A DNA stretch of 63,840 nucleotides, filler included, from Folioceros fuciformis (Eukaryota): NCBI GenBank assembly GCA_049999805.1. It is 18 parts of 18 records of this genome, joined end to end, with 100 filler letters (N's around TTAATTAATTAA, not from the genome) between each part and the next. Parts side by side here need not be neighbours in the genome. Positions count along the whole stretch, not along the records: positions 7,532 to 11,861 come from JBNGIO010006758.1; 17 more parts are not named here. One strand, 5' to 3'. Positions 8,341-55,633 of this stretch are shown piece after piece (position 1 is the first letter of the stretch; every line of letters begins with the position of its first letter). Made by a program: the position numbers and the translations under genes. The notes below the pieces were generated by a model, which was not told the DNA's origin, searched no databases, and worked only from the letters and a program-made list of their open reading frames with translations.

Positions 8341-9375
8341 CCCTGGCCTAGGCATAGGCATAGGCCGACGCTGCCACATTAATCACGCAAGCCTTCTGCC
8401 CATTTGCCAAATGTGTCTGACGCTGGTGTGAAAAGGGCCCTGCCGCAGGCAGCGGATCCCGGCGAAGATTTGCAGCAGGCCGGGCCCCGGGCCCTGTTGA
8501 TAATGTTTTGCAGGCATATCCGACATCCGGATCCCCAAGTGGCCTGGCCTGGCCTTGGCCTTGGCCTGGTCTGCCCCGGCCCCCAGTCGCAGGCAGCTGC
8601 TATAGGGCCCCCCTGGGCACTGGCCAGGCCTTCCTCATCGTCCCGCTCGTCACCGGCCTGCGATACATACGTATGTACATCAGCACATGTCTATGTACAT
8701 GACAGACATGGACACAAACTGGACACTGGGCTGGCCCAGGGCTGTTCCATGAATGCATCAATGCGGCCCGGTGACGTCTCTATCCGGTCTGGGGCCCAAG
8801 TACAGAACAGAAGCTGCCGCTGCCTGGCTCGGGTGGTGGGTGGGTACAATCTTTAAAGAAGCAGGAGGCCTTTCCCGCGGGACCGGAGCCCGGAGCGAGC
8901 CCGGCCCGCAGTGGTACGGTACCAGCTTCGGCTTCTACTCACACATACCCCGGTCGCTCGCTCCGGGGTGGGCCAGCAGTTGACTGGATTCGCTAGTCTT
9001 GTCGCATTCGGTCTTAACGGGACGGGGCGACACAACCCGTTATACAGCTCGGCTCTGTTCTGCACTGCACAACGGAGGGGGCCCTGTACCGTGGTAGCGG
9101 CATCGTCTTGGGGCGAGCAATATGGGATAAAGGCGGGTGGGCGGGCGACCGGGTAAGCGGGCAGGCGAGCACGCACAGACACAAAGACACGCATCCGACG
9201 TGCAGGCTGATGCCGGACCGATTATTTTTCCTTTTGTTACACTGTAGGCTGCCGCCGTCGGCACAATAATGTTCAGGCCATTCGGCAGGAAGCTACCAAC
9301 ATATCCCAAGGCAAATGGTGTACAGGGGTGAATTCACCCAAGAGATGGTCATGGCTGGGGAAGGAGCGGAAGGTG

Positions 9376-11278
9376 CTATTGGGAGTTGCGCCTCATCTGA
9401 GAACGGAGTTGCTGCTCGATGGACGAGAAGTTGGCTTGGAGATCGAACATCCGCTCCAGAGCATGCATGTTTTCTATGGTGTCGCTCACACTCTTGCCGT
9501 CGGTGCCGTCCGTCCTGAGGTGCTGCATGGGCCCATGGAGCAGCTTGTTCACGATGCTTCTCGACAGCTCCTCCACCAGTTGCCTGTCCTTCTTGGGCAC
9601 ATCTTCACTCAGTTTGCTCAGGCACTTGTTCACCTCGCTGGATCGGATGCGTTCTGCGTAGGCCCGCAGCCGCTTGATGGTCGGGACAGTTTCCAGAGAG
9701 TCCCGCCACGACTCGAAATTCTGCAGCTCGATGTCGATTAGTACTTGGGCTTCCTGTGCCTTCCGTCTCCTGTCCTCCTTGTTGGCTGCCACCACTTCCT
9801 CCAGGTCGTCCACGTTGAAGAGTCTGGTGGAAGGGACGCCGGAGACGCAGGGGGCCACGTTCCTGGGCACGGCTATGTCAACGAAGTATCTGGTCCCGCC
9901 CACATGGGTGGAGGCGGGAGGGAGCTGCTCCACGTCTTCCTTCACAAATAGAGGGGTGTTAGCTGCAGTGCTGGTGAAGATGACGTCTGCCTCACTCGCA
10001 CAGATCATGAGCCGTGAGAGAGGCTCGTACTGCAGGTTCAACTCTGGGAACTCCGCCTGCAGCTCCAACACTTTCTGCTCCGACCTGTTCACCACCACCA
10101 CGTGGGTGGAGCCCCTGGAGACGAGATGCTTCACCAGCAGCTTCGCCATCTTCCCTGCACCCACCACCAGCACTCGTGCCAGGGCAAACCTCTCCTTGGA
10201 AAGCTTCAGCACAGCCAGCTCCACGGCAGCAGAGCTGACGGACACAGCCCCTGCAGAGATGCTGGTCTCCGCCCTCACCCTCTTCCCTGCCGTGATGGCC
10301 TGCTTGAACAGCCCATTCAAGTGCCTCCCGAACCCCACGCTCCCCTGCCCGGTCTTGAACACCTGCTTCACCTGCGACAGGATCTGCCCTTCACCCAGCA
10401 CCAGCGAGTCCAGCCCCGACGACACTCTGAACAAGTGCTGACAAGCGTCCCGATCCCGAAGAACGAAGAGATGCTCCCTCAACTCGGCACCAGCGACGCC
10501 GCTTCTCTGCACCCAACACAACACGTGCCCGGCTCCCTCAATTGAACCATCGACCAGCCAAAACATGAACTACGGCAGCGAAAGATTGCGATCCCGCACC
10601 TTGGACATCCAATCCAGCACCTCAACCAACCCTCGATTCCAGGACAGAGCCACCACGTAAATCTCCATCCGATTGCATGTACTCAGCACGGCCGCTTCCT
10701 CAATGTGATTATGCCCACAGAGCTCGGTGATAGCACTAGACCACTCCGGTTCCGGAACCGCCAGCTTCTCCCGCAACTCCACGGGAGCCGTATGCACGCT
10801 CAACCCTAGCACCATGATCACGTTCTTGGCTTTGGTATACCCTGCAAAATCCCATCCCACGCAGGCATCATCAGACCACGCCACAGGTCCAACCTACCCC
10901 CAGAGCCCGGCAACCCAGAGCACAGCACAGCACAGCATGGCAATCCAACCACTCACTTTCAGGCCCGGCAAGACGCAGCTGCTCCAGAGCGCTGGCATTC
11001 GCCGGCTTGATCCTGTGGCCCGGGGGCAGCTCAGGTGTGCCGTCACCGGACAAGGCAGCCCTGGCCCCAGCAGCAGGAGCATGACCCGAGATCTCCAACT
11101 TCTCCAGTCTATGAAACCAGCCCCCGGAATCCCCTCCCCTGAAGAAGGCCCAGCTCCGAAGAAACGGGCACTTGGAGGAGCGCAAAAACGGACACCCCTC
11201 CCGATCGGCCCTAGCAATGTCTGCCAGCCCCTCCAGACCGGAGGCCGGGGCAGGGGCGGCGCACGTCCTCAGACCCAT
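9376..11278 (-). CDS. HEMA: Glutamyl-tRNA reductase (GluTR), 3 coding exons: 11278-10957, 10841-10600, 10506-9376
   Basis: Motifs [25 protein letters not shown], catalytic [38 protein letters not shown] and NKLLHGP. The GT-AG junctions keep frame, and an in-frame TAG just upstream fixes the ATG at 11278. Confidence 0.97.
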
Positions 11279-12127
11279 GCTCCTCTACCTGCACCCGCAG
11301 CCAATGAACTGCAATGAGCCCCAACCCCAGCCGCTACGCCAGCCTCCCAATGCCCCACCAGCTGAGCTGAGCAGACGCCCATCACGCCATTCCTACCTCC
11401 CAAAAGCTCAGGGACAGGCTCGGGCCCAGGCTCCCACCCAGCCAGCGGCAAGTCCTCGCCGACGCGGCGCCCGAGACGAGGCAAGGCGAAGCGATGAGAT
11501 GCGAATGCAAGCAAAGCAGCCTGAACCTCTTGGTGCAGCTGCGGAATCCGAGAGACACAGACAGCATGGGAAGACGGCGCCCACATCCGAATCACTCGAG
11601 ATCGAAATGAAGAAGCCCGTGGAGGAGCGTGGAGGAGGCGGGCGAGGTTGAGGGCGAGGAAAAGCCAGTTAGCTACCCAACGCCGGGTCAAAGGAGGGAG
11701 CCCGCGGTCGCCTCGGACTCGAAGCAGCAGGAGCAGGAGCAGGAACAGGAACAGCAACGACAACAGCGTCCGCATTCTTTCCTGCGCAGTGCTGCCCATC
11801 GGTCATGGAAAGGGGTGCGAAGCCTCGTGGTTGTAGTTGCTGGTACTATTTCATACAGGACNNNNNNNNNNNNNNNNNNNNNNNNNNNNNNNNNNNNNNN
11901 NNNNNTTAATTAATTAANNNNNNNNNNNNNNNNNNNNNNNNNNNNNNNNNNNNNNNNNNNNGTATGCACATGTACATATATGCCCATCTTCCAAGCCCTT
12001 CTATATCCTCCACCTCCAGCACGCCAGCACGCAACCAGGCAAAAAAACGAAGGCATTGCATCATCAAACTGTCACCATTCTGCACGGATCGGGAGATGGA
12101 TAGGGGACATGACAAAGTCTGCTCACC

Positions 12128-18466: not shown

Positions 18467-20308
18467 ATGCACCAGGCCGTCCATGTCCGTCCACCAGCTC
18501 TGCCCCGGCTGCTTCAGAGCCCCAACTTCCTTTCTCCTCACCTGCATCTCCTGTGCCTTATCCCACATCTGGGCACCCGAGTAAATGTATGACATCAACA
18601 GGTACGCTGCAGGATCCTTTTTGTCTAGCTTCACCGCTTGGTTGAAGGCATGGCAACCTACCTCCACATTTCTCCACTTTCGACAAGCACTCAAGAGGGT
18701 GTGCCAAACTGAAAGATTAGCCTCAACAGGCATCAACCTCACCATTTCTAGTGCCTTGTCAAGTTGGCCTGCACGACCCAGGAGATCTACCATACATGAG
18801 TAGTGCTCTGCAGCGGGTGTGATGCCGGAGTGCCTCATAGCTTCAAAGTACTCTTGCCCCTTGCTCAGTAGACCTGCGTGACTGCATACGGTTAGAACAG
18901 CCAGAAACGTCTGGCTGCCGGGCTGTATGCAATCCTCTCTCATTCTGTGAAAAAGGTCGAAGACCACTTCACTGTCTCCTTGACGGGTGTATCCATTGAT
19001 GAGCGCCGTCCAGGCAACCACATTTCTTCCGGGCAGAGCATCGAACACCTGTTGCGCATCAACCATGCTCCCGGACTTGGCATACATGTTTATCAAACTG
19101 TTCACCACATTCTCATCACCTTGAAGCCCTAGTTCTTTAATCTGCTCATGAAGCTGATTTCCCGCCTGTAAAGCTGCCACACTTGCACATGCTTGCAGGA
19201 GGCACACAAATATCACAGAATCGAGGATAGCGATGCCCTCTTGTTGCATGGCATGGTACAATCGAAGGGCATCCTGCGCCATTCCCTGCTGGGAATACCC
19301 TGCAATCAGAGCAGTCCAGGTAACCACATCTTTTCGAGAAAGCCTGTCAAACACTCTCTGTGCGTCCGGTAGGCTGCCACATTTTGCATACATGTACACC
19401 AAGCAATTACACACAAACAGATCAGGCTCAACCCCACTGGCCAACACATCAGCATGGACCTGCTGCCCACTTTTCAAGTCTTCTGCCTTTCCACAAGCCT
19501 GCAGAGCCGCCACAAAAACATGGCCATCCGGATTCACCCCTGATCTGCGCATCTGATGATACAGTTGTATGGCCACCTCCGATTCTCCTTGTCTAACATG
19601 TGCAGTGATTATGGACGACCACATGAAGGCATCTGGTGTGGGAACCATGGTGAACACATCCATCGCATCCTTCAACATTCCATGAGAGGCATACATCCGT
19701 ACGACGTGGTTGCACATGAACGTGTCTGCCTGATACCCTCGCATCACGCTGAAAGCATGAACCCGGCGACCCAGTACCAAATCCTTACCACGCACACATG
19801 CTTTCAGGACATTGTGAAACAAGGTCTTGGAAATTCGACACTCCCTGTGAACCAGAATTCCCAGGGCCTCCACAGCTTCGGTGAGCTGGCCCTGCTCACA
19901 TAATTTGCCCACCATCGCAGCTGTGATGCCCATTCCGTATTCTGCAGGGCTCCAAGGATCAGCCTCACCGGGCATTCTCCAATTGGATTTAGGAGCACGA
20001 CGATCCGTCTGCGTAGCCTGTGCAGCCAGCTGACATCCCAGACGCCGTGGCTTGCAAATGCTCCTTAACCAGAGCACCTCCCCAGACTGTTCATGCCGAA
20101 ATTCATGACACCGAAAGACCTTGTTCAGTTTTCTGTGATTCCAACAAAGAGCATGTTCCAATAACTGATGTCGCCCCAAAGCCAGCTGATCTGAAACGCT
20201 TCCTCCAAGACCTGTGAGCCCATCAATCTGCCATGTCCATGAAATCTGCTCCCCCAATAGGCCTGGTCCCCGTCTGCCAGAGTCAATTGCAAGGTTACAG
20301 GCAGCCAT
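18467..20308 (-). CDS. PLS-class PPR protein with E1/E2 and start of a DYW:WW-type domain; intronless, 3'-truncated
   Basis: Canonical P-L-S repeats, HYSCMVDLLGRAG and VWHTLLSACR are followed by KQPGQSWWTDMDG (WW variant of the PG box). A degenerate PDF-like motif lies near the N-terminus. Confidence 0.95.
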
Positions 20309-22395
20309 GGTCGACAGCCTTGTCTGCTGGGCCACGTGCGCAGTTTATGTCCAAACCCATATGCAAGCTCGATTCTTCAAAGTTTCTACCTCAGAGGACT
20401 CCTCTCCTTTGAAAGTACTACACTTCGCTGCCCTCTCGCAAGTTGCAACCAACACCAATCCGGCCAGCGATTTCTTCCCAAGCAGAACGAACATACACTG
20501 TATGTGCAGTGAATGGATAGGAGGTGGGCACACATCGAAGCTTGTGTCAGCACAGCCATCTTGTCTGAGAGCCTTCATTCGTATGATGAACCTAAAACCC
20601 TAGCCATTCCTCTAATTTGGCATGAAGACAGTGCAGGTCCGAAATCTGGGTTTTGAAACTGTAAGAATGCGCGGGGATTTGATTTCACGTCTTGTTGAAT
20701 GAAGTAGGAGCCTGCTGCTGGAAAACGAGGTCGGCGATGGAAGCGGAGCGCGCTTTCTGATTGTAAGGAGCCGCAGTAGNNNNNNNNNNNNNNNNNNNNN
20801 NNNNNNNNNNNNNNNNNNNNNNNTTAATTAATTAANNNNNNNNNNNNNNNNNNNNNNNNNNNNNNNNNNNNNNNNNNNNGATGTGTCCATCTTACCAGGA
20901 TTGAATGCAGAGGCCTAGTCTGCAGCACGCCTGGGGCCGAGACACAAGGTTCTGATACATGGCACAACTAGTGTGACTTGACTGGACAATGGACATGGGA
21001 GCATGGCAGGGCGGCCAAAGGATCTGGAACCCAGAAGCAAACACTCTTCTCCAATACACCCTCGAAGATTCAGTCCTGCCGTTTTATTTCTACAAGTACG
21101 AGCACTACACAAGGCAGGACTCAAGTGACCAACAACAGAAACTAGTTGTGGCTGACTTCATCACAATCCCGTGCAGCACACGAACTACGAAGCCTCCCTG
21201 CGCCAGTATCCCAGGCTGGATTGCCTTCTTCTTGACGCGGTCTCCAAACGCTAAAGCCTTTCGGGAACTGCAAACTGCCACGGTGATCCCTCAAACTCCG
21301 TTCCAGAACCATTCCCCTTTTCTAAAAGGGTACCCATCACAACCAGCTTATCTGCTACAACAACCCAGTGTTAGCGAAGTCGCTAGAGGGATACAGGCAG
21401 CATTGCGCAGCTCAAGCAGAAGCCGGCAAAGCTGCCAGACGAGTGGGGCTCACATCTCCACCCACCGCTCCCCCAACGCCTCAAGCTGGTTTGATCTTCT
21501 GGGGAGTAGCAGTAGCGGGCTTCTTACCAAGCCATCTGAGGAGCACATACCCGATGATCGAGATAATAAGAGACAGGGCAGCGAAAACCTGGGGATCCAG
21601 CCCACCACCTGCCATCAGCCACAATCTGATGTGCAAATATCCCCAACCTGCAACGGCCCAAGATCTCAACCGCTTCCTCAGTTCGCTACTTCCGGCCTGT
21701 TAGGCCTGCACTCGCCCCCCGTGTGCAATTTATTCAACTTGGAGCCTTAAGGCCTTTCTCAAGGCTCACAGTACCTCGACGGCCCTGAGTAATTGCACAG
21801 CCCGCGATGGCAATAGCAATTGAACAGTAGGGGAACATGGCATCGCAGAACTACCGGCTCAACAGAAGATTTCCTCAACTTGTGTGCGTACAGCGGGAAC
21901 GTTGCTTGCAACCCTGCAATCTTTGTTCTGTGAACACCAACACCTCGCTGGAACCTTGGACATCGGCAGGTCGCTCCTACTGCATCTATCGGGTTTGGGC
22001 GTGCAAAACCCTAACAGAGATGCAAGTTTGGGATTGGGTTCAACGCCTGAAGCTGCCGCGGGCAGCATTGGGTCGCTTTGATTAGCGCAGGCAAATAATG
22101 TTAATGCCGTTGCTGATGAGCTTTCCTCCTCGAAACGAGAGCTTCCCCTCCAGGGTCGCTTTGCTGAACACAAATAGAGGGTTTTAACCCGGAACTCAAA
22201 AAGATTGTGGCTTGGCCTGGGCATCGATCGCCGCATCGCACATGGGCTTAGGATTGCCTGCACCGAACGAAAATCGAGAATCAAGGTGCGGCTCTAGATG
22301 AGCTGATCAGCTGCCGGCACAGTCTGGACTCAGGGCTTCAGATAGACGAGTTGAACAGGGACGATTTGCGGCGGCCGCAACGTACAGGTGGAGCC

Positions 22396-32580: not shown

Positions 32581-34256
32581 CTGTTAATTGTAGAGGATGC
32601 CACCAAGTCATAATACTTATAGTGGTTTAAGTAGTTTTCTTTGTTGGATGTAAGTGCTTGCTTGGTGTCTAGCTAAGTTGTGATAAGTGTTCACTAGCCC
32701 AGTTGTTATTAGTTTTGTATGGCATGTGTAACATGATTGAGTGTCATTGCAAATTACAAACCTACGGGAAGGAGTGCTACATGTGATTGCGCTTAATTCA
32801 TATGAGAGTAGATTAGTGAGAACCTCTGCCATGCTATCCTCCATCCTTCATATAGACTATCCTTCATTGCCAACAACAGCTCGCTACTCTACTGCACAAA
32901 AGAACGTCATCTTACATATAGAACAAGGTAGTAAAAGGAATGCAGATGATTATCAAGGCCCTGAAATTTAGACCAGCCACAAAGGTAGTGATTCAGCTGC
33001 AACAACCATGAACATGGGCAGGATGTCCCCTCCACCACCACTATGATCACACGCAAAGTCTATTCAAGATATAACNNNNNNNNNNNNNNNNNNNNNNNNN
33101 NNNNNNNNNNNNNNNNNNNTTAATTAATTAANNNNNNNNNNNNNNNNNNNNNNNNNNNNNNNNNNNNNNNNNNNNCCCAATGCCCTACTCCCAACAGGTA
33201 ACCCAATGCCCTACTCCCAACATTTAGGGAGGGTGGACTGTAATATGTATGCGGTAAACTCGCAAGTGGATTTACTTGATTGTACATAGTTTAATCCCTA
33301 AACAACGGGGTTGCGGGGAGCCGAGTTTTGCGATGGACTCCAATTCAGTTTTTTGGTAGCTTGCGGGGTGACCATTGTTACACCCTAACGCACCCTCCAC
33401 ACAGATCCCTAGAATGTGGTGGAATCGATGGAGACCGTCATCGACCACTGGAAGCCTTCAGCTGTGAAGGGACTTCCAACTTCGGCCGATGGTCGACCCA
33501 TTGCATAGCTCTGGCACCCTCGCCTGCAATTGACTACCTTCCAGCCCCGAGACCTCCTTGCAATCTTCTGCCTCATTCAGATAGTCATACCTTTCAGCTG
33601 TTCCAACTCACCTCTGGCATTGCTCTCTTTGCAATCTTCTACTTCAGGAACAGTTGCAGGCTTCATCAACCACAGCATTGAGAAGCTCATCTTGGAGTGG
33701 AATCTGCTGCGCCTCTATTCCAGACAGATGAATCAAGCAGACATGGTCGTCCCCCAAACCCCTGACTCCGACCAGTCCAGCAGCTATTCCAGACATAAAC
33801 AAACGAACATTTCATTCGAGTCTTTGATTGAAGATTGTTGCACACGAACACAATCACTTCATTGGTAAACACTAAAACCAGTCCCTTCGGCATGCAAGAA
33901 TGAAGCGATACGCAAGGACAAGCTCCTGCAGCAACAGAATACGGATCGACGGCAGAAGCAAACTCGACACTGTAACCACTTAGAGCTGGAACATCAACAG
34001 ATCCTACTGCAAGAACGCTCCATCAATTCCGCTTGCCGTTGAACGAAGGTGACCACAAGCACTTGATACCACACTCAAGCCTTGGAAGACTGACACCATA
34101 GCGTCAGTTAAAATACACATGATGCGGCATAGCATGATAAGACGCTGCAAGAAAGAATTTGTATCGCCGGCCAACGAAAATTCCCCTTCGCAACGCCTCT
34201 CACATCTGGAGCATAAAGAAGACCTGATGGCAGAACATACGCTCTTGAAGCGAACG

Positions 34257-35111
34257 ATGAAGGCTCCCTGGACGCTGCTGCGGCTGCTGGTCCTCAGTCT
34301 GCACTTGCCTCGTCCTCACACGACACACGCCAGGGCTCCGACACCTGCCCCGGCTCCAGCTCCCTCGAGAAATGCAGGGACCAACTCCTTCAACTTCTCC
34401 ATCTCAGAGTGGGACCAGAGTAGCTACTTGACGCTGAGTGGCGACGCGGCCCTGGCGCCAGACGGGAGCAGGCTCCTGTTGGTACCGGGCTTCAGGCGGT
34501 GGGGCACCGCAAGGGCTACTTTTGCAGAGCGAGTCCTTTTCCTGGACGAGAGCAGCAAAGCAGAGGCGTCCTTCTCCACCACCTTCACCTTCTCCATCCA
34601 GGTGAACGATTCGGGGTACATGGGGGACGGGATCGCCTTCCTCATTGCGTCGGGGCAAGAAGTCCCCGAGGGCTACGAAGGCAAAAACATTGGGCTGCAC
34701 GACGCCGGGGTGAGGGATGGTGATCCCGCCATCCAGGTGCTCGCCGTGGAGTTCGACACGCACCGGAACCTGGACCTACAGGACCCCGACGGGCATCACG
34801 TCGGCCTGGACGTGAACAGCCTCGTATCCCTCATCACCAGGGACGTGGCGGCGCTGGACCTGGCCTTGGCCGACGTCGCCGTGCGCAAGCTTACCGCTTG
34901 GATCGACTACGACGCTCGCAAGCACCAGATCGAGGTGCGCCTCGCCAGGTACCCGGCTCCCAGGCGCGACGCCACCCGCCTCTTCACGTACCCCAGGATT
35001 AACCTCGCAAAGATCGTGAGCGGAGCGTCCTACGTCGGCTTCTCTGCCGCAACAGGCATGGCCACCGAGGAGAACACCATTTACTCCTGGTCGTTTCAGA
35101 GCTGGCTGTAG
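34257..35111 (+). CDS. Secreted legume (L-type) lectin domain protein, single exon, no TM or kinase domain
   Basis: Hydrophobic N-terminus, then LTLSGDA, ASFSTTFTFSI, GDGIAF, LAVEFDT, HHVGLDVNS, AWIDYD, YVGFSAATG and IYSWSF. Confidence 0.92.
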   Translation: MKAPWTLLRLLVLSLHLPRPHTTHARAPTPAPAPAPSRNAGTNSFNFSISEWDQSSYLTLSGDAALAPDGSRLLLVPGFRRWGTARATFAERVLFLDESSKAEASFSTTFTFSIQVNDSGYMGDGIAFLIASGQEVPEGYEGKNIGLHDAGVRDGDPAIQVLAVEFDTHRNLDLQDPDGHHVGLDVNSLVSLITRDVAALDLALADVAVRKLTAWIDYDARKHQIEVRLARYPAPRRDATRLFTYPRINLAKIVSGASYVGFSAATGMATEENTIYSWSFQSWL

Positions 35112-45537: not shown

Positions 45538-48025
<2,488 letters not shown>

Positions 48026-48191: not shown

Positions 48192-50173
<1,982 letters not shown>

Positions 50174-53898: not shown

Positions 53899-54182
53899 CC
53901 TGCTCAGCTGCAGCCAAGTCGATATATTTGCGTTTGCCGAACCACGAATCACGCTCCAGTCGGAGGATCGAGGGAGCCTGTGGGATTCGGGCCAGCCGAA
54001 GTTCCACAACCCGGGGTTTTAAATAGGTTGGCGTGTGGCTTGTCGGAAACTACACCTGTAGGGTTAGTTGGCCCTTTTTGGCNNNNNNNNNNNNNNNNNN
54101 NNNNNNNNNNNNNNNNNNNNNNNNNNTTAATTAATTAANNNNNNNNNNNNNNNNNNNNNNNNNNNNNNNNNNNNNNNNNNNN

Positions 54183-54651
54183 GCCTGCAAGGATCCAATC
54201 TACACCAAAACTCACACCACATTGTGGTATTGCAAAACAAACACCTATCTTCTGATTCATTCACTACATTTAATTCTTGGTTAAGTATAAGTTGTCTATT
54301 TTCTTGTTCTCTTTCCGTCATTTTCTTCATGACTTCCTTCTTATGCTCATCAAGCATCTTCTCTAATTCAGCTTCTACGTCTGCATTAGTTCCTTCCATT
54401 TTATTATTTGGGTCATGAACTTGTTGTGGGGAGCCATCTAGGGTCCAACAGGTTCGGCAAATTGCACATCGTTTTTCAAATTCTGGTTCCATTTTATCTT
54501 CATCTTCATCTTTCACTTTACTAAAAAACCACTTGGCTATGCAAGATGCATGGAATCCATGCTTGCAAGGATGCAAATACACCCAGGTTTCATTTACAAA
54601 TAATTCTGTACAAAGAATACAGTCATCATTATTCTCATCCACTGGATCCAT
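54183..54651 (-). CDS. AT-rich intronless protein with tandem RING fingers, 3'-truncated
   Basis: RING-H2 (CILC...PCKHGFHASC..W...CAICR), a charged linker, then a second CLFC...LDPC. Confidence 0.75.
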
Positions 54652-55633
54652 TTCTCCTCAATTTCTTGTTTGAAATATTTATCTAGCTTTTAATCAATTT
54701 CTTATGTGCAAGATAGAACACATTTTAGGATGGTTCTTGTTTGGAATCTAAAAACTTTTTTGGTTGATTATATAACATGTATTAATTTTATTTTTATTTT
54801 AAAGACATAAAATTTCAGATCAATTTCTTATTGAGACATAAGAGCAACAAGTCAAGACATTAAAATGAACTCTATACTTGGATGATATTGGATAAATCTA
54901 ATCAGACCGCGTTATTGCATGGAAACACTTTCTTGATTGCTTGATACTCATGTTACTTATAATTAATACTTAGGGTTTTTAAATTAAATTAAATAATTTA
55001 AAAAAAACAGGTTAGGATATTTAGGCCATCTATTATCTATCTAATAAGTGACTTCAAAGGTATTCAGGACTACAATTTTACCTCTTATTTATGATTATAT
55101 ATCATGAATATTTAAAATATATTAAAGGTTTAACTCAGTACGTAATAAAATTTAATTATATCATTCATATATTCTTTATATTTTATTATATCATGAAAAA
55201 TAAAATTAATAAGGAAGGGCATTTATGGCGTACGTGTTCCCTTATAAATCTCAAGATGGCGTTGTGTGGGGTTCGATTAACCTCATTCTCTACTGTGTGT
55301 AGGGTTTGAGTAATTAACCTAAACCTAATCCGTGTCCACTGAAAGGGTTTCGTTCGCTCAAACGTTTAAAACACAAAGGCTTTGCTCATTGGTCGTTAAT
55401 AGAGACGTCACTCACGTAACCTGACAGCCATCACTTCCAGATGAAATTTATTGGGCTATCTGTGGGCTACCCTAGGATCATGCAAGAGTACGAAGGACTG
55501 AGCGTCAAGGAATTTCTGGTACAGGGAATACTTACTAGTTCACTATCGTAATGATAATCTGGCCGGAAACGTTAAGCCCCATGGGAACAAATAAACAAAT
55601 AAAGAAGGTACATCCGTTGAGAAACGACGCATA

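What the first reader, a model, noticed from the sequence alone, without database searches (positions are those of the whole stretch)
11153..11197. Glutamyl-tRNA reductase presequence with two ALAS-type heme regulatory (CP) motifs
Seen: HEMA residues 28-42 read [15 protein letters not shown]. Exon 1 is in frame with ALEQL|RYTK and an upstream in-frame TAG fixes the start. The two CPFLRS copies differ at synonymous positions (TGT CCG TTT TTG CGC TCC vs TGC CCG TTT CTT CGG AGC), which points to conservation at the protein level. Known: [R/K]CP[F/L/V] heme regulatory motifs in the N-terminal region of animal ALA synthase bind heme and block mitochondrial import. GluTR is the unrelated rate-limiting ALA-forming enzyme of plants, and its described feedback runs through FLU, GBP and an N-terminal regulatory domain. 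I know of no CP motifs in angiosperm GluTR. Inference: this could be a convergently evolved heme sensor gating plastid import or turnover of GluTR.
Basis: partly seen in the sequence, partly recalled or inferred. Interest (0 to 1): 0.85.

Follow-up and report, generated by a model that had tools for sequence, protein, structure and literature searches.

The report
Twin Cys-Pro motifs in GluTR presequence
A land-plant (probably hornwort) gene for the first enzyme of chlorophyll and heme synthesis carries two copies of a short Cys-Pro peptide in its plastid-targeting leader; they are real, expressed and conserved as peptide, but whether they sense heme is untested.

Summary
On the minus strand, 11197..11153 encodes [15 protein letters not shown], residues 28-42 of a 564-aa glutamyl-tRNA reductase.

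A spliced, mismatch-free transcript contig confirms the exon and the start codon. It adds a 108-nt intron in the 5' leader.

The two CPFLRS copies differ at 6 of 18 bases yet give the same peptide. Six random substitutions keep the peptide in only 5 to 34 of 200,000 trials.

The motifs lie about 36 residues before the likely cleavage site, so they belong to the transit peptide. They align with an older element of non-seed plants that often has Cys but never Cys-Pro.

Single CP dipeptides occur here and there in other GluTR leaders and are not conserved. No close orthologue could be read at these codons.

Best reading (0.5): a duplicated import-recognition element. The heme-sensor reading (about 0.2) is neither shown nor excluded. 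Interest is moderate.

The parts
11153..11197 (-). The finding: [15 protein letters not shown], residues 28-42. Hexapeptide copy 1 (C29-S34) is 11194..11177 and copy 2 (C37-S42) is 11170..11153.
   Evidence: The copies differ at 6 of 18 nt and give the same peptide.
11276..11278 (-). Start codon ATG, with A at -3 and G at +4. It is the only in-frame ATG before the catalytic core.
11285..11287 (-). In-frame TAG two codons before the ATG. It is kept in the mature mRNA, whichever of the equivalent intron cuts is taken.
   Evidence: frame 0 reads ...AFGR*RSMGLRT..., table 5.
11057..11278 (-). Predicted plastid transit peptide, M1-A74. The inferred processing site is GARA|A between residues 74 and 75.
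   Evidence: One search places it opposite VRA|S, PRA|D and ARA|E of ferns, mosses and liverworts. This is inferred; no cleavage predictor was run.
10957..11278 (-). Coding part of exon 1: 107 codons plus 1 base. It ends ...[11 protein letters not shown].
   Evidence: X1 record 1, piece 10956-11284, cut +1.
10842..10956 (-). Intron of 115 nt, GTGAGT...GCAG.
   Evidence: table 5 (skips 115, CT..AC, cut +1).
10600..10841 (-). Exon 2, the first half of GlutR_N.
   Evidence: (PF05201, 1.6e-17).
10507..10599 (-). Intron of 93 nt, GTGCGG...TGCAG. The same skip is seen in the contigs of all four runs.
   Evidence: table 5 (10506->10600 in X1, X2, X3, X11).
9376..10506 (-). Exon 3 coding part with the TAG stop at 9378..9376: the rest of GlutR_N, the NADPH domain and the dimerisation domain.
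   Evidence: PF05201, PF01488, PF00745; 4n7r_A, 1.8e-147.
11289..11396 (-). Intron of 108 nt in the 5' leader, GTAGGA...GCAG. It can equally be written 11285-11392.
   Evidence: table 5 (11284->11393, cut +4, both 6).
11397..11700 (-). Non-coding 5' leader exon. The contig runs 61 nt beyond 11700. It holds two upstream ATGs in weak context; one upstream ORF overlaps the main ATG.
   Evidence: X1 record 1, piece 11393-11700, record positions 62-369.

Best explanation
The 45 bases encode two tandem copies of the hexapeptide CPFLRS in the cleavable plastid transit peptide of the glutamyl-tRNA reductase precursor. The plant is a non-seed land plant, probably a hornwort.

Most likely this is a lineage-specific, duplicated version of an old recognition element of non-seed-plant GluTR transit peptides. 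The element is a small residue or Cys, then Pro or a polar residue, then two hydrophobic or aromatic residues, then a basic residue and Ser. That make-up resembles the FP/RK and FGLK motifs of other transit peptides.

The element would act while the precursor is outside or crossing the envelope, by engaging the TOC/TIC import machinery or its chaperones. It would then be removed with the leader about 36 residues downstream. Two copies would raise avidity. The Cys-Pro pair gives each copy the chemistry of a heme regulatory motif, but on this reading that is a by-product.

Shown: the segment is transcribed, spliced and in frame; the start is fixed; the copies are conserved as peptide; the second copy aligns with the liverwort, fern and lycophyte element.

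Inferred: plastid targeting, the cleavage site, and the import function.
For: 1. A spliced contig identical to the window covers the exon. The mRNA has a stop two codons before the ATG.
2. The copies differ at 6 of 18 nt with the same peptide. This is expected in 5 to 34 of 200,000 random trials. No DNA tandem repeat is detected there. In the two plus-strand frames the copies do not read alike, so the constraint is on this frame.
3. MAFFT of the window against 16 non-seed GluTR N-termini that I picked from the 120 hits:
   - Copy 2 plus WAFFRGG lies opposite liverwort GRC(S/N)(L/F)R..(I/L/V)FGAG.
   - It also lies opposite fern SCSFVK, ACHFFK, SPLFR and SPLFK.
   - The column of C37 holds Cys in 8 of 16 rows, Ser in 3, and V or L in the 5 moss rows.
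   - The column of P38 holds Pro in 2 of 16 rows.
   - GARA|A aligns with the VRA|S type sites.
4. Each copy has an aromatic residue, Pro and Arg (Lys follows copy 1) and no acidic residue. [quoted passage not shown] The compositional rule itself is recalled, not read.
5. In three related species, exon 1 has no frame-breaking indel. The only indel is 6 nt in X2, at 11075-11083. There is no 24-nt indel, so both copies are present in all four species. Exon 1 differs by 8.5% (X2, 28 of 329) and 10.2% (X3, 33 of 325). The leader exon differs by 11-15% and also carries 14-22 gap letters (table 8).
Against: - Cys is kept in both copies through a synonymous change (TGT against TGC), and Pro in both. 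No import-motif rule known to me asks for Cys.
- The leader is unusual for a transit peptide: 7 acidic residues and only 7 Ser or Thr in 74.
- The transit-peptide alignment is short and gappy, and MAFFT favours Cys-Cys columns.
- The pattern C.[FL].?[RK] is only weakly enriched: 9 of 86 N-termini against 4.3 +/- 1.9 in shuffles, and 10 of 500 shuffles reach 9. I chose that pattern after seeing the data.
- No targeting or cleavage predictor and no import data were available.
Confidence: 0.5

Rival explanations
1. Heme regulatory motifs. Free heme in the cytosol binds the Cys thiolates of C29-P30 and C37-P38 in the precursor. It then blocks passage through the envelope or marks the precursor for cytosolic degradation. 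ALA synthesis would thus fall when heme is in excess. This would be convergent with the presequence motifs of animal ALA synthase.
For: - Both copies have Cys-Pro followed by two hydrophobic residues. Copy 2 has Lys at -1 and a net positive nonapeptide.
- Peptides with a CPFL core (IRP2-derived variants) bind heme at about micromolar Kd, with the 367-369 nm band (table text of PMC10377097).
- The position is in the presequence of the rate-limiting ALA-forming enzyme.
- For ALAS, a CP motif is needed for heme-induced degradation (passages of bioRxiv 10.1101/2024.07.05.602318). For the import block I saw only the titles of Munakata 2004 and Dailey 2005 in reference lists.
- The peptide is under constraint, with Cys and Pro kept in both copies.
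- I recall that mammalian ALAS1 motifs share the same four-residue core. I could not check this here.
Against: - The aligned element of 16 other non-seed plants has no row with Cys and Pro together at these columns, so the older function did not need CP.
- Single CPs in other GluTR leaders are not conserved. L017 and L018 have ICPRV while their relatives L019 and L024 have PCARV. Brassicaceae GluTR1 has GCPKLE while the paralogue has TPKLE.
- In Arabidopsis, heme feedback on GluTR runs through GBP and Clp, and the GluTR N-terminus does not bind heme (passages of PMC6597238).
- No paper in the library links heme regulatory motifs with GluTR or with a chloroplast transit peptide. In some searches, none of the listed papers (8, 1 and 1) makes that link by title, abstract start or, for the three I opened, the passages read.
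- CP conservation in the close relatives is not known.
Confidence: 0.22
2. The element has a Cys-based function other than heme. Examples are a redox-sensitive thiol pair (Cys-x7-Cys) that ties import competence to the cytosolic redox state, or a transient metal site.
For: - Cys occupies the aligned column in 8 of 16 non-seed GluTR leaders (liverworts, ferns, lycophytes), without Pro beside it.
- The window has two such Cys eight residues apart.
Against: - Mosses lack the Cys in 5 of 5 rows and two ferns have Ser.
- There are only two Cys, and the nearest His is 19 residues away.
- The only solved-structure look-alike, a Nanos zinc-finger stretch, scores E = 2.3, which is no match.
- I know of no precedent for this in GluTR.
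Confidence: 0.08
3. There is no specific function. The segment is filler in a tolerant transit peptide, and the identical peptides are a lucky outcome picked out after the fact.
For: - Transit peptides tolerate much change.
- The test rests on six codons chosen because they looked striking.
- CP dipeptides arise by chance in GluTR leaders: 2 of 86, 5 of 17 recovered N-termini (two sequence groups), and 5 of 20 (two gene lineages).
Against: - Only 5 to 34 of 200,000 random trials keep the peptide.
- The Ser codons TCC and AGC cannot be interconverted without passing through another residue.
- The repeat is shared by four species without an indel.
Confidence: 0.15

Closest known systems
Heme regulatory (Cys-Pro) motifs in the presequence and N-terminal region of animal 5-aminolevulinate synthase (ALAS1, ALAS2)
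   Same: - A Cys-Pro followed by hydrophobic residues, present more than once.
- Placed in the N-terminal targeting region of the enzyme that makes ALA.
- The proposed logic is the same: the end product blocks entry or stability of the first enzyme.
   Different: - The enzyme is unrelated (GluTR, C5 pathway) and the organelle is the plastid, not the mitochondrion.
- Heme binding is not shown here.
- The motif is not conserved in other land-plant GluTRs.
FGLK and FP/RK motifs of chloroplast transit peptides (RbcS and others)
   Same: A short, acid-free element with an aromatic residue, Pro and a basic residue, often present twice in one transit peptide, upstream of the cleavage site.
   Different: - The order of residues differs, and Cys is not part of those motifs.
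- Binding to Toc34, Toc159 or TIC20 was not tested.
- The leader has more acidic and fewer hydroxylated residues than angiosperm transit peptides.
Arabidopsis GluTR1 N-terminal regulatory domain (RED, formerly 'heme-binding domain') with GBP and Clp
   Same: Heme-dependent post-translational control of GluTR through its N-terminal part (PMC6597238 passages).
   Different: - RED is the first 30 residues of the mature protein and acts in the stroma.
- There the heme binder is GBP, not GluTR.
- The motifs here lie upstream of RED, in the part that is cut off. RED would correspond to about residues 75-104.
Single CP dipeptides in other GluTR transit peptides (Brassicaceae GluTR1 VGCPKLE; B. carinata TCPMNN; Drosera IRCPVVW; P0026 RYCPLFG; metagenome loci ICPRV and VPCPQI)
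   Same: A CP in the leader of the same enzyme.
   Different: - There is one copy only, in other sequence contexts and other positions.
- The CP is replaced in near relatives or paralogues.
- None has the repeated CPFLRS.

Membership tests
Glutamyl-tRNA reductase (HemA/GluTR) | GlutR_N, NAD(P)-binding (Shikimate_DH) and GlutR_dimer domains in this order | tested here: met
   PF05201 is split over exon 2 (1.6e-17) and exon 3 (5.5e-26); PF01488 scores 3.1e-39 and PF00745 scores 6.3e-27; 4n7r_A (Arabidopsis GluTR1) scores 1.8e-147; 70-71% identity to bryophyte and fern GluTRs.
Glutamyl-tRNA reductase (HemA/GluTR) | Intact, expressed open reading frame | tested here: met
   a 564-aa CDS with no internal stop; a spliced contig with 0 differences.
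Heme regulatory motif (CP motif) of the ALAS presequence type | Cys-Pro dipeptide followed by a hydrophobic residue | tested here: met
   CPFL occurs twice.
Heme regulatory motif (CP motif) of the ALAS presequence type | Lies in the cleavable N-terminal targeting sequence | tested here: inconclusive
   the motifs end 32 residues (C37: 37) before the site aligned with VRA|S-type processing sites. This is alignment only; there is no predictor or proteomic N-terminus.
Heme regulatory motif (CP motif) of the ALAS presequence type | Cys and Pro conserved among orthologues | tested here: inconclusive
   Distant orthologues: 0 of 16 aligned rows have C and P together at these columns. Close relatives (X2, X3, X11) cover the codons without an indel, but their letters were not shown (272 rows hidden).
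Heme regulatory motif (CP motif) of the ALAS presequence type | Cys-dependent heme binding (Soret band near 370 nm) | not testable with these tools
   This needs peptide and hemin spectroscopy.
Heme regulatory motif (CP motif) of the ALAS presequence type | Heme-dependent block of organelle import or heme-induced degradation | not testable with these tools
   This needs import and stability assays.
FGLK / FP-RK type transit-peptide motif | Aromatic residue, Pro or Gly and a basic residue in a short acid-free stretch (rule recalled from Chotewutmontri et al. 2012, not read) | tested here: met
   CPFLRSSK and CPFLRSW.
FGLK / FP-RK type transit-peptide motif | Contact with Toc34/Toc159/TIC20 and a need for it in import | not testable with these tools
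   Only review passages were read.

The most novel reading that the evidence does not exclude
The twin CPFLRS peptides are true heme regulatory motifs. In this lineage the GluTR precursor senses cytosolic heme and is kept out of the plastid, or destroyed, when heme is high. That would be convergent with animal ALA synthase.

In the widest form, the Cys-bearing element seen at the same place in liverwort, fern and lycophyte GluTR leaders is an old heme or thiol sensor, and the hornwort form is the canonical Cys-Pro version.
Probability: 0.2. Interest if true: 0.8.

Novelty: new variant of a known kind. Interest (0 to 1): 0.4.

Why it matters
ALA formation is the control point of chlorophyll and heme synthesis. 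In plants the known heme feedback on GluTR acts inside the plastid, through GBP and Clp (PMC6597238).

A heme-gated import step acting on the precursor would be a new layer of control. It would also be a clean case of convergence between two unrelated ALA-forming enzymes.

It can be tested cheaply with a 20-residue peptide, hemin and Cys-to-Ser controls, followed by chloroplast import assays.

If the motifs are only import elements, the finding is still a well-defined example of a transit-peptide motif held under peptide-level selection. It also gives a corrected gene model, with a new donor site and a leader intron.

Tried and rejected
- **Homologues of the exon-1 peptide.** The word-index search among longer proteins found none at E <= 0.01 among 2786 candidates. 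The search of every representative protein gave 2 hits, both long proteins (1893 and 4032 aa) matched over low-information stretches, which I rejected. The metagenome scan gave 444 pattern matches and 0 relatives.
- **Close orthologues through exon 3 or exon 2.** The best was 71% identity among the 120 hits listed and 80% among 80 metagenome loci. No near relative is in these collections.
- **RNA runs.** No RNA holder is listed. The runs I laid are contigs labelled 'RNA?' by guess. I count X1 record 1 as transcript-derived only because it lacks three GT..AG introns.
- **Codons 11153-11197 in X2, X3 and X11.** They are covered, but their differences are among the 272 rows not shown.
- **Whole genome.** It is not held, so the second HEMA copy seen as an about 80%-alike contig could not be read at its N-terminus.
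- **Solved structures with residues 22-53.** The only hit was a Nanos zinc-finger stretch at E = 2.3, rejected as chance.
- **Pfam on the exon-1 peptide.** 0 families.
- **Earlier findings of this scan.** Nothing came back for place, sequence or words.
- **Primary ALAS papers.** PMC5034046 and PMC1134803 are not held. The likeness of the CPFL core to ALAS1 therefore rests on recall.
- **14-3-3 type phospho-motif around RSSKCP.** Considered by eye and rejected, because the spacing does not fit (my reading, no call).
- **Short transit peptide ending at IARA|D** (which would leave the motifs on the mature protein). Considered and thought less likely, because the homologous site of other plants aligns with GARA|A.
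- **Supplementary files of papers** were closed and not consulted.

Full report
**What is there**

The finding lies on the minus strand. Translating 11284..10976 gives a stop, then RS, then [42 protein letters not shown].... [15 protein letters not shown] is residues 28-42, at 11197..11153. The downstream exons carry GlutR_N, the NADPH-binding domain and the dimerisation domain. They match Arabidopsis GluTR1 (4n7r_A) at 1.8e-147. The gene is therefore a glutamyl-tRNA reductase (HEMA).

**Gene model and expression**

I laid four public runs on 9300-11700. Run X1 holds a 2241-nt contig with 0 differences from the window. It covers 9300-10506, 10600-10840, 10956-11284 and 11393-11700. Read on the minus strand, the three skipped parts have GT..AG ends. 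The run is labelled RNA only by guess, but the loss of three introns shows that the contig comes from spliced RNA.

- Coding exon 1 ends at 10957 (GAAA|GTGAGT), not after ALEQL. The protein reads [15 protein letters not shown], which matches the spacing and even the residues of liverwort GluTRs (FEQLRLAKSNRY in P0012 and P0018).
- A 108-nt intron lies in the 5' leader. Its acceptor overlaps the in-frame TAG.

Whichever of the equivalent cuts is taken, the mRNA reads ...AFGR*RSMGLRT.... The TAG therefore stays two codons before the ATG, and the start is fixed. The next in-frame Met lies in the catalytic core. The spliced CDS gives 564 residues without an internal stop.

**Is the repeat more than chance?**

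The two CPFLRS copies differ at 6 of 18 bases and encode the same peptide. In copy 1, six random substitutions leave the peptide unchanged in 5 of 200,000 trials with no transition bias, and in 34 of 200,000 with a threefold bias.

Other points agree:
- The two Ser codons (TCC, AGC) cannot be interconverted without passing through another amino acid.
- Tandem Repeats Finder reports nothing at the site, so this is not a young DNA repeat.
- In the two plus-strand frames the copies do not read alike.

The constraint is therefore on this peptide. One caution applies: the test covers six codons that were chosen because they looked striking.

**Close relatives**

Contigs of three other organisms (X2, X3, X11) are 90-95% alike and spliced at the same places. 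They cover 10962-11290. The only indel in that stretch is 6 nt in X2, at 11075-11083. All four species therefore have both copies.

| Run | Exon 1 | Exon 3 | 5' leader exon |
|---|---|---|---|
| X2 | 28 of 329 | 79 of 1181 | 10 of 68 and 24 of 223, with 15 gap letters |
| X3 | 33 of 325 | 93 of 1181 | 27 of 208, with 14 gap letters |
| X11 | 14 of 197 over 11094-11290 | not compared | not compared |

All counts are, table 8. Exon 1 thus evolves more slowly than the leader. Whether Cys and Pro are kept in these species is not known. At about 8% divergence, their retention would in any case be a weak test.

**Distant relatives**

No homologue of the exon-1 peptide was found in any protein or metagenome collection. 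The best GluTR matches are 70-71% identical and spread over liverworts, ferns, mosses and lycophytes. That spread, the introns of about 100 nt and a PPR-E gene nearby fit a hornwort. This is an inference, not a result.

I aligned the window's N-terminus with 16 non-seed GluTR N-termini that I picked from the 120 hits:
- The part from AAGARA to the core aligns well.
- GARA|A falls opposite the VRA|S, PRA|D and ARA|E sites, which look like stromal processing sites. The transit peptide would then be M1-A74, and the CP motifs lie well inside it.
- Copy 2 with its tail ([14 protein letters not shown]) falls opposite liverwort GRC(S/N)(L/F)R..(I/L/V)FGAG and fern SCSFVK, ACHFFK, SPLFR and SPLFK. Copy 1 is an insertion.
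- At the column of C37, 8 of 16 rows have Cys, 3 have Ser, and the 5 moss rows have V or L.
- At the column of P38, 2 of 16 rows have Pro.
- No row has both Cys and Pro at these columns.

The element is therefore older than the CP pair. The pattern C.[FL].?[RK], which I chose after seeing this, occurs in 9 of 86 N-termini against 4.3 +/- 1.9 in shuffles. Ten of 500 shuffles reach 9. That is weak support.

**How common is CP in GluTR leaders?**

- Of the 120 hits, 86 start with Met and have at least 60 residues before the core anchor. The other 34 were dropped as truncated or not matched by my anchor pattern. Two of the 86 have a CP in the leader: P0026 and P0101, which is Drosera.
- Of 26 metagenome loci examined (out of 80), an N-terminal ORF was recovered in 17. 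Five of these have a CP, in two sequence groups. L017 and L018 have ICPRV, while their relatives L019 and L024 have PCARV. L023, L025 and L027 have VPCPQI.
- Of 20 Brassicaceae GluTRs, 5 have a CP. P0137 and P0141 (GluTR1 type) have VGCPKLE, where the GluTR2 type has TPKLE. P0138, P0139 and P0140 have TCPMNN, where others have LPMNN.

Single CPs in GluTR leaders therefore arise and vanish freely. None of these proteins has two CPs or the CPFLRS peptide.

**Mechanism**

The simplest reading is that the hexapeptide is a duplicated import-recognition element of the transit peptide. It has an aromatic residue, Pro, a basic residue and Ser, and no acidic residue. That is the make-up of the FGLK and FP/RK motifs, which contact Toc34, the TOC complex and TIC20 (review passages; the compositional rule is recalled). 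I give this reading 0.5.

The heme reading remains open, at about 0.2.
- For it: both copies have the Cys-Pro-hydrophobic core, and copy 2 sits in a basic context. CPFL-core peptides bind heme in vitro (table text of PMC10377097). The position mirrors the ALAS presequence.
- Against it: the element lacks CP in other lineages, and CPs elsewhere are incidental. In Arabidopsis, heme acts through GBP and not through the GluTR N-terminus (PMC6597238). Nothing in print links these motifs with GluTR or with chloroplast transit peptides in the three searches made.

A role in turnover of mature GluTR is unlikely, because the motifs should be removed on import.

**Verdict**

The heme-sensor idea is neither shown nor excluded. 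It is cheap to test. Interest is moderate.

Noticed in passing
window 11397-11700 (minus strand): The HEMA 5' leader is long (over 370 nt), is split by a 108-nt intron, and holds two upstream ATGs in weak context (C at -3). One upstream ORF runs across the splice and ends 8 nt after the main ATG. This may be translational control.
   Followed up: partly
window 9439-10440 (contigs of runs X1, X2, X3, X11): Each of the four related organisms has a second, about 80%-alike contig over parts of exon 3 and exon 2 (for example X1 record 2, 2097 nt). This points to a second HEMA gene. Its N-terminus could not be read.
   Followed up: no
P0003, P0012, P0018, P0004, P0008, P0011, P0033, P0014: Liverwort, fern and lycophyte GluTR transit peptides share a Cys at one aligned column, as in GRC(S/N)(L/F)R or S(R)xC.F.K. 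Mosses have V or L there. This may be an old Cys-bearing element, or it may be an alignment artefact.
   Followed up: partly
P0137, P0141 against P0124-P0131: Brassicaceae GluTR1-type proteins have VGCPKLETLL at residues 8-17, where GluTR2-type proteins have V(T/S)PKLE. So the best-studied GluTR family carries a single CP in its transit peptide.
   Followed up: partly
window 45538-47163 (-) and 48737-50173 (+): Two thiamine-synthesis genes lie back to back about 1.6 kb apart: ThiC (PF01964, 1.2e-183) and Thi4 (PF01946, 2e-109).
   Followed up: partly
window 18470-20344 (-), 34053-35111 (+), 54180-54657 (-): An intron-less PPR protein with an E motif, cut by a run of N. A legume-lectin-domain ORF. 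A weak RING-finger ORF that scores below Pfam's cut-off.
   Followed up: no
window about 3310, 7480, 11860-11960, 20300, 25800, 54130, 59120: Short runs of N (about 45-50 bases each) interrupt the window at several places. One lies just upstream of the HEMA leader.
   Followed up: no
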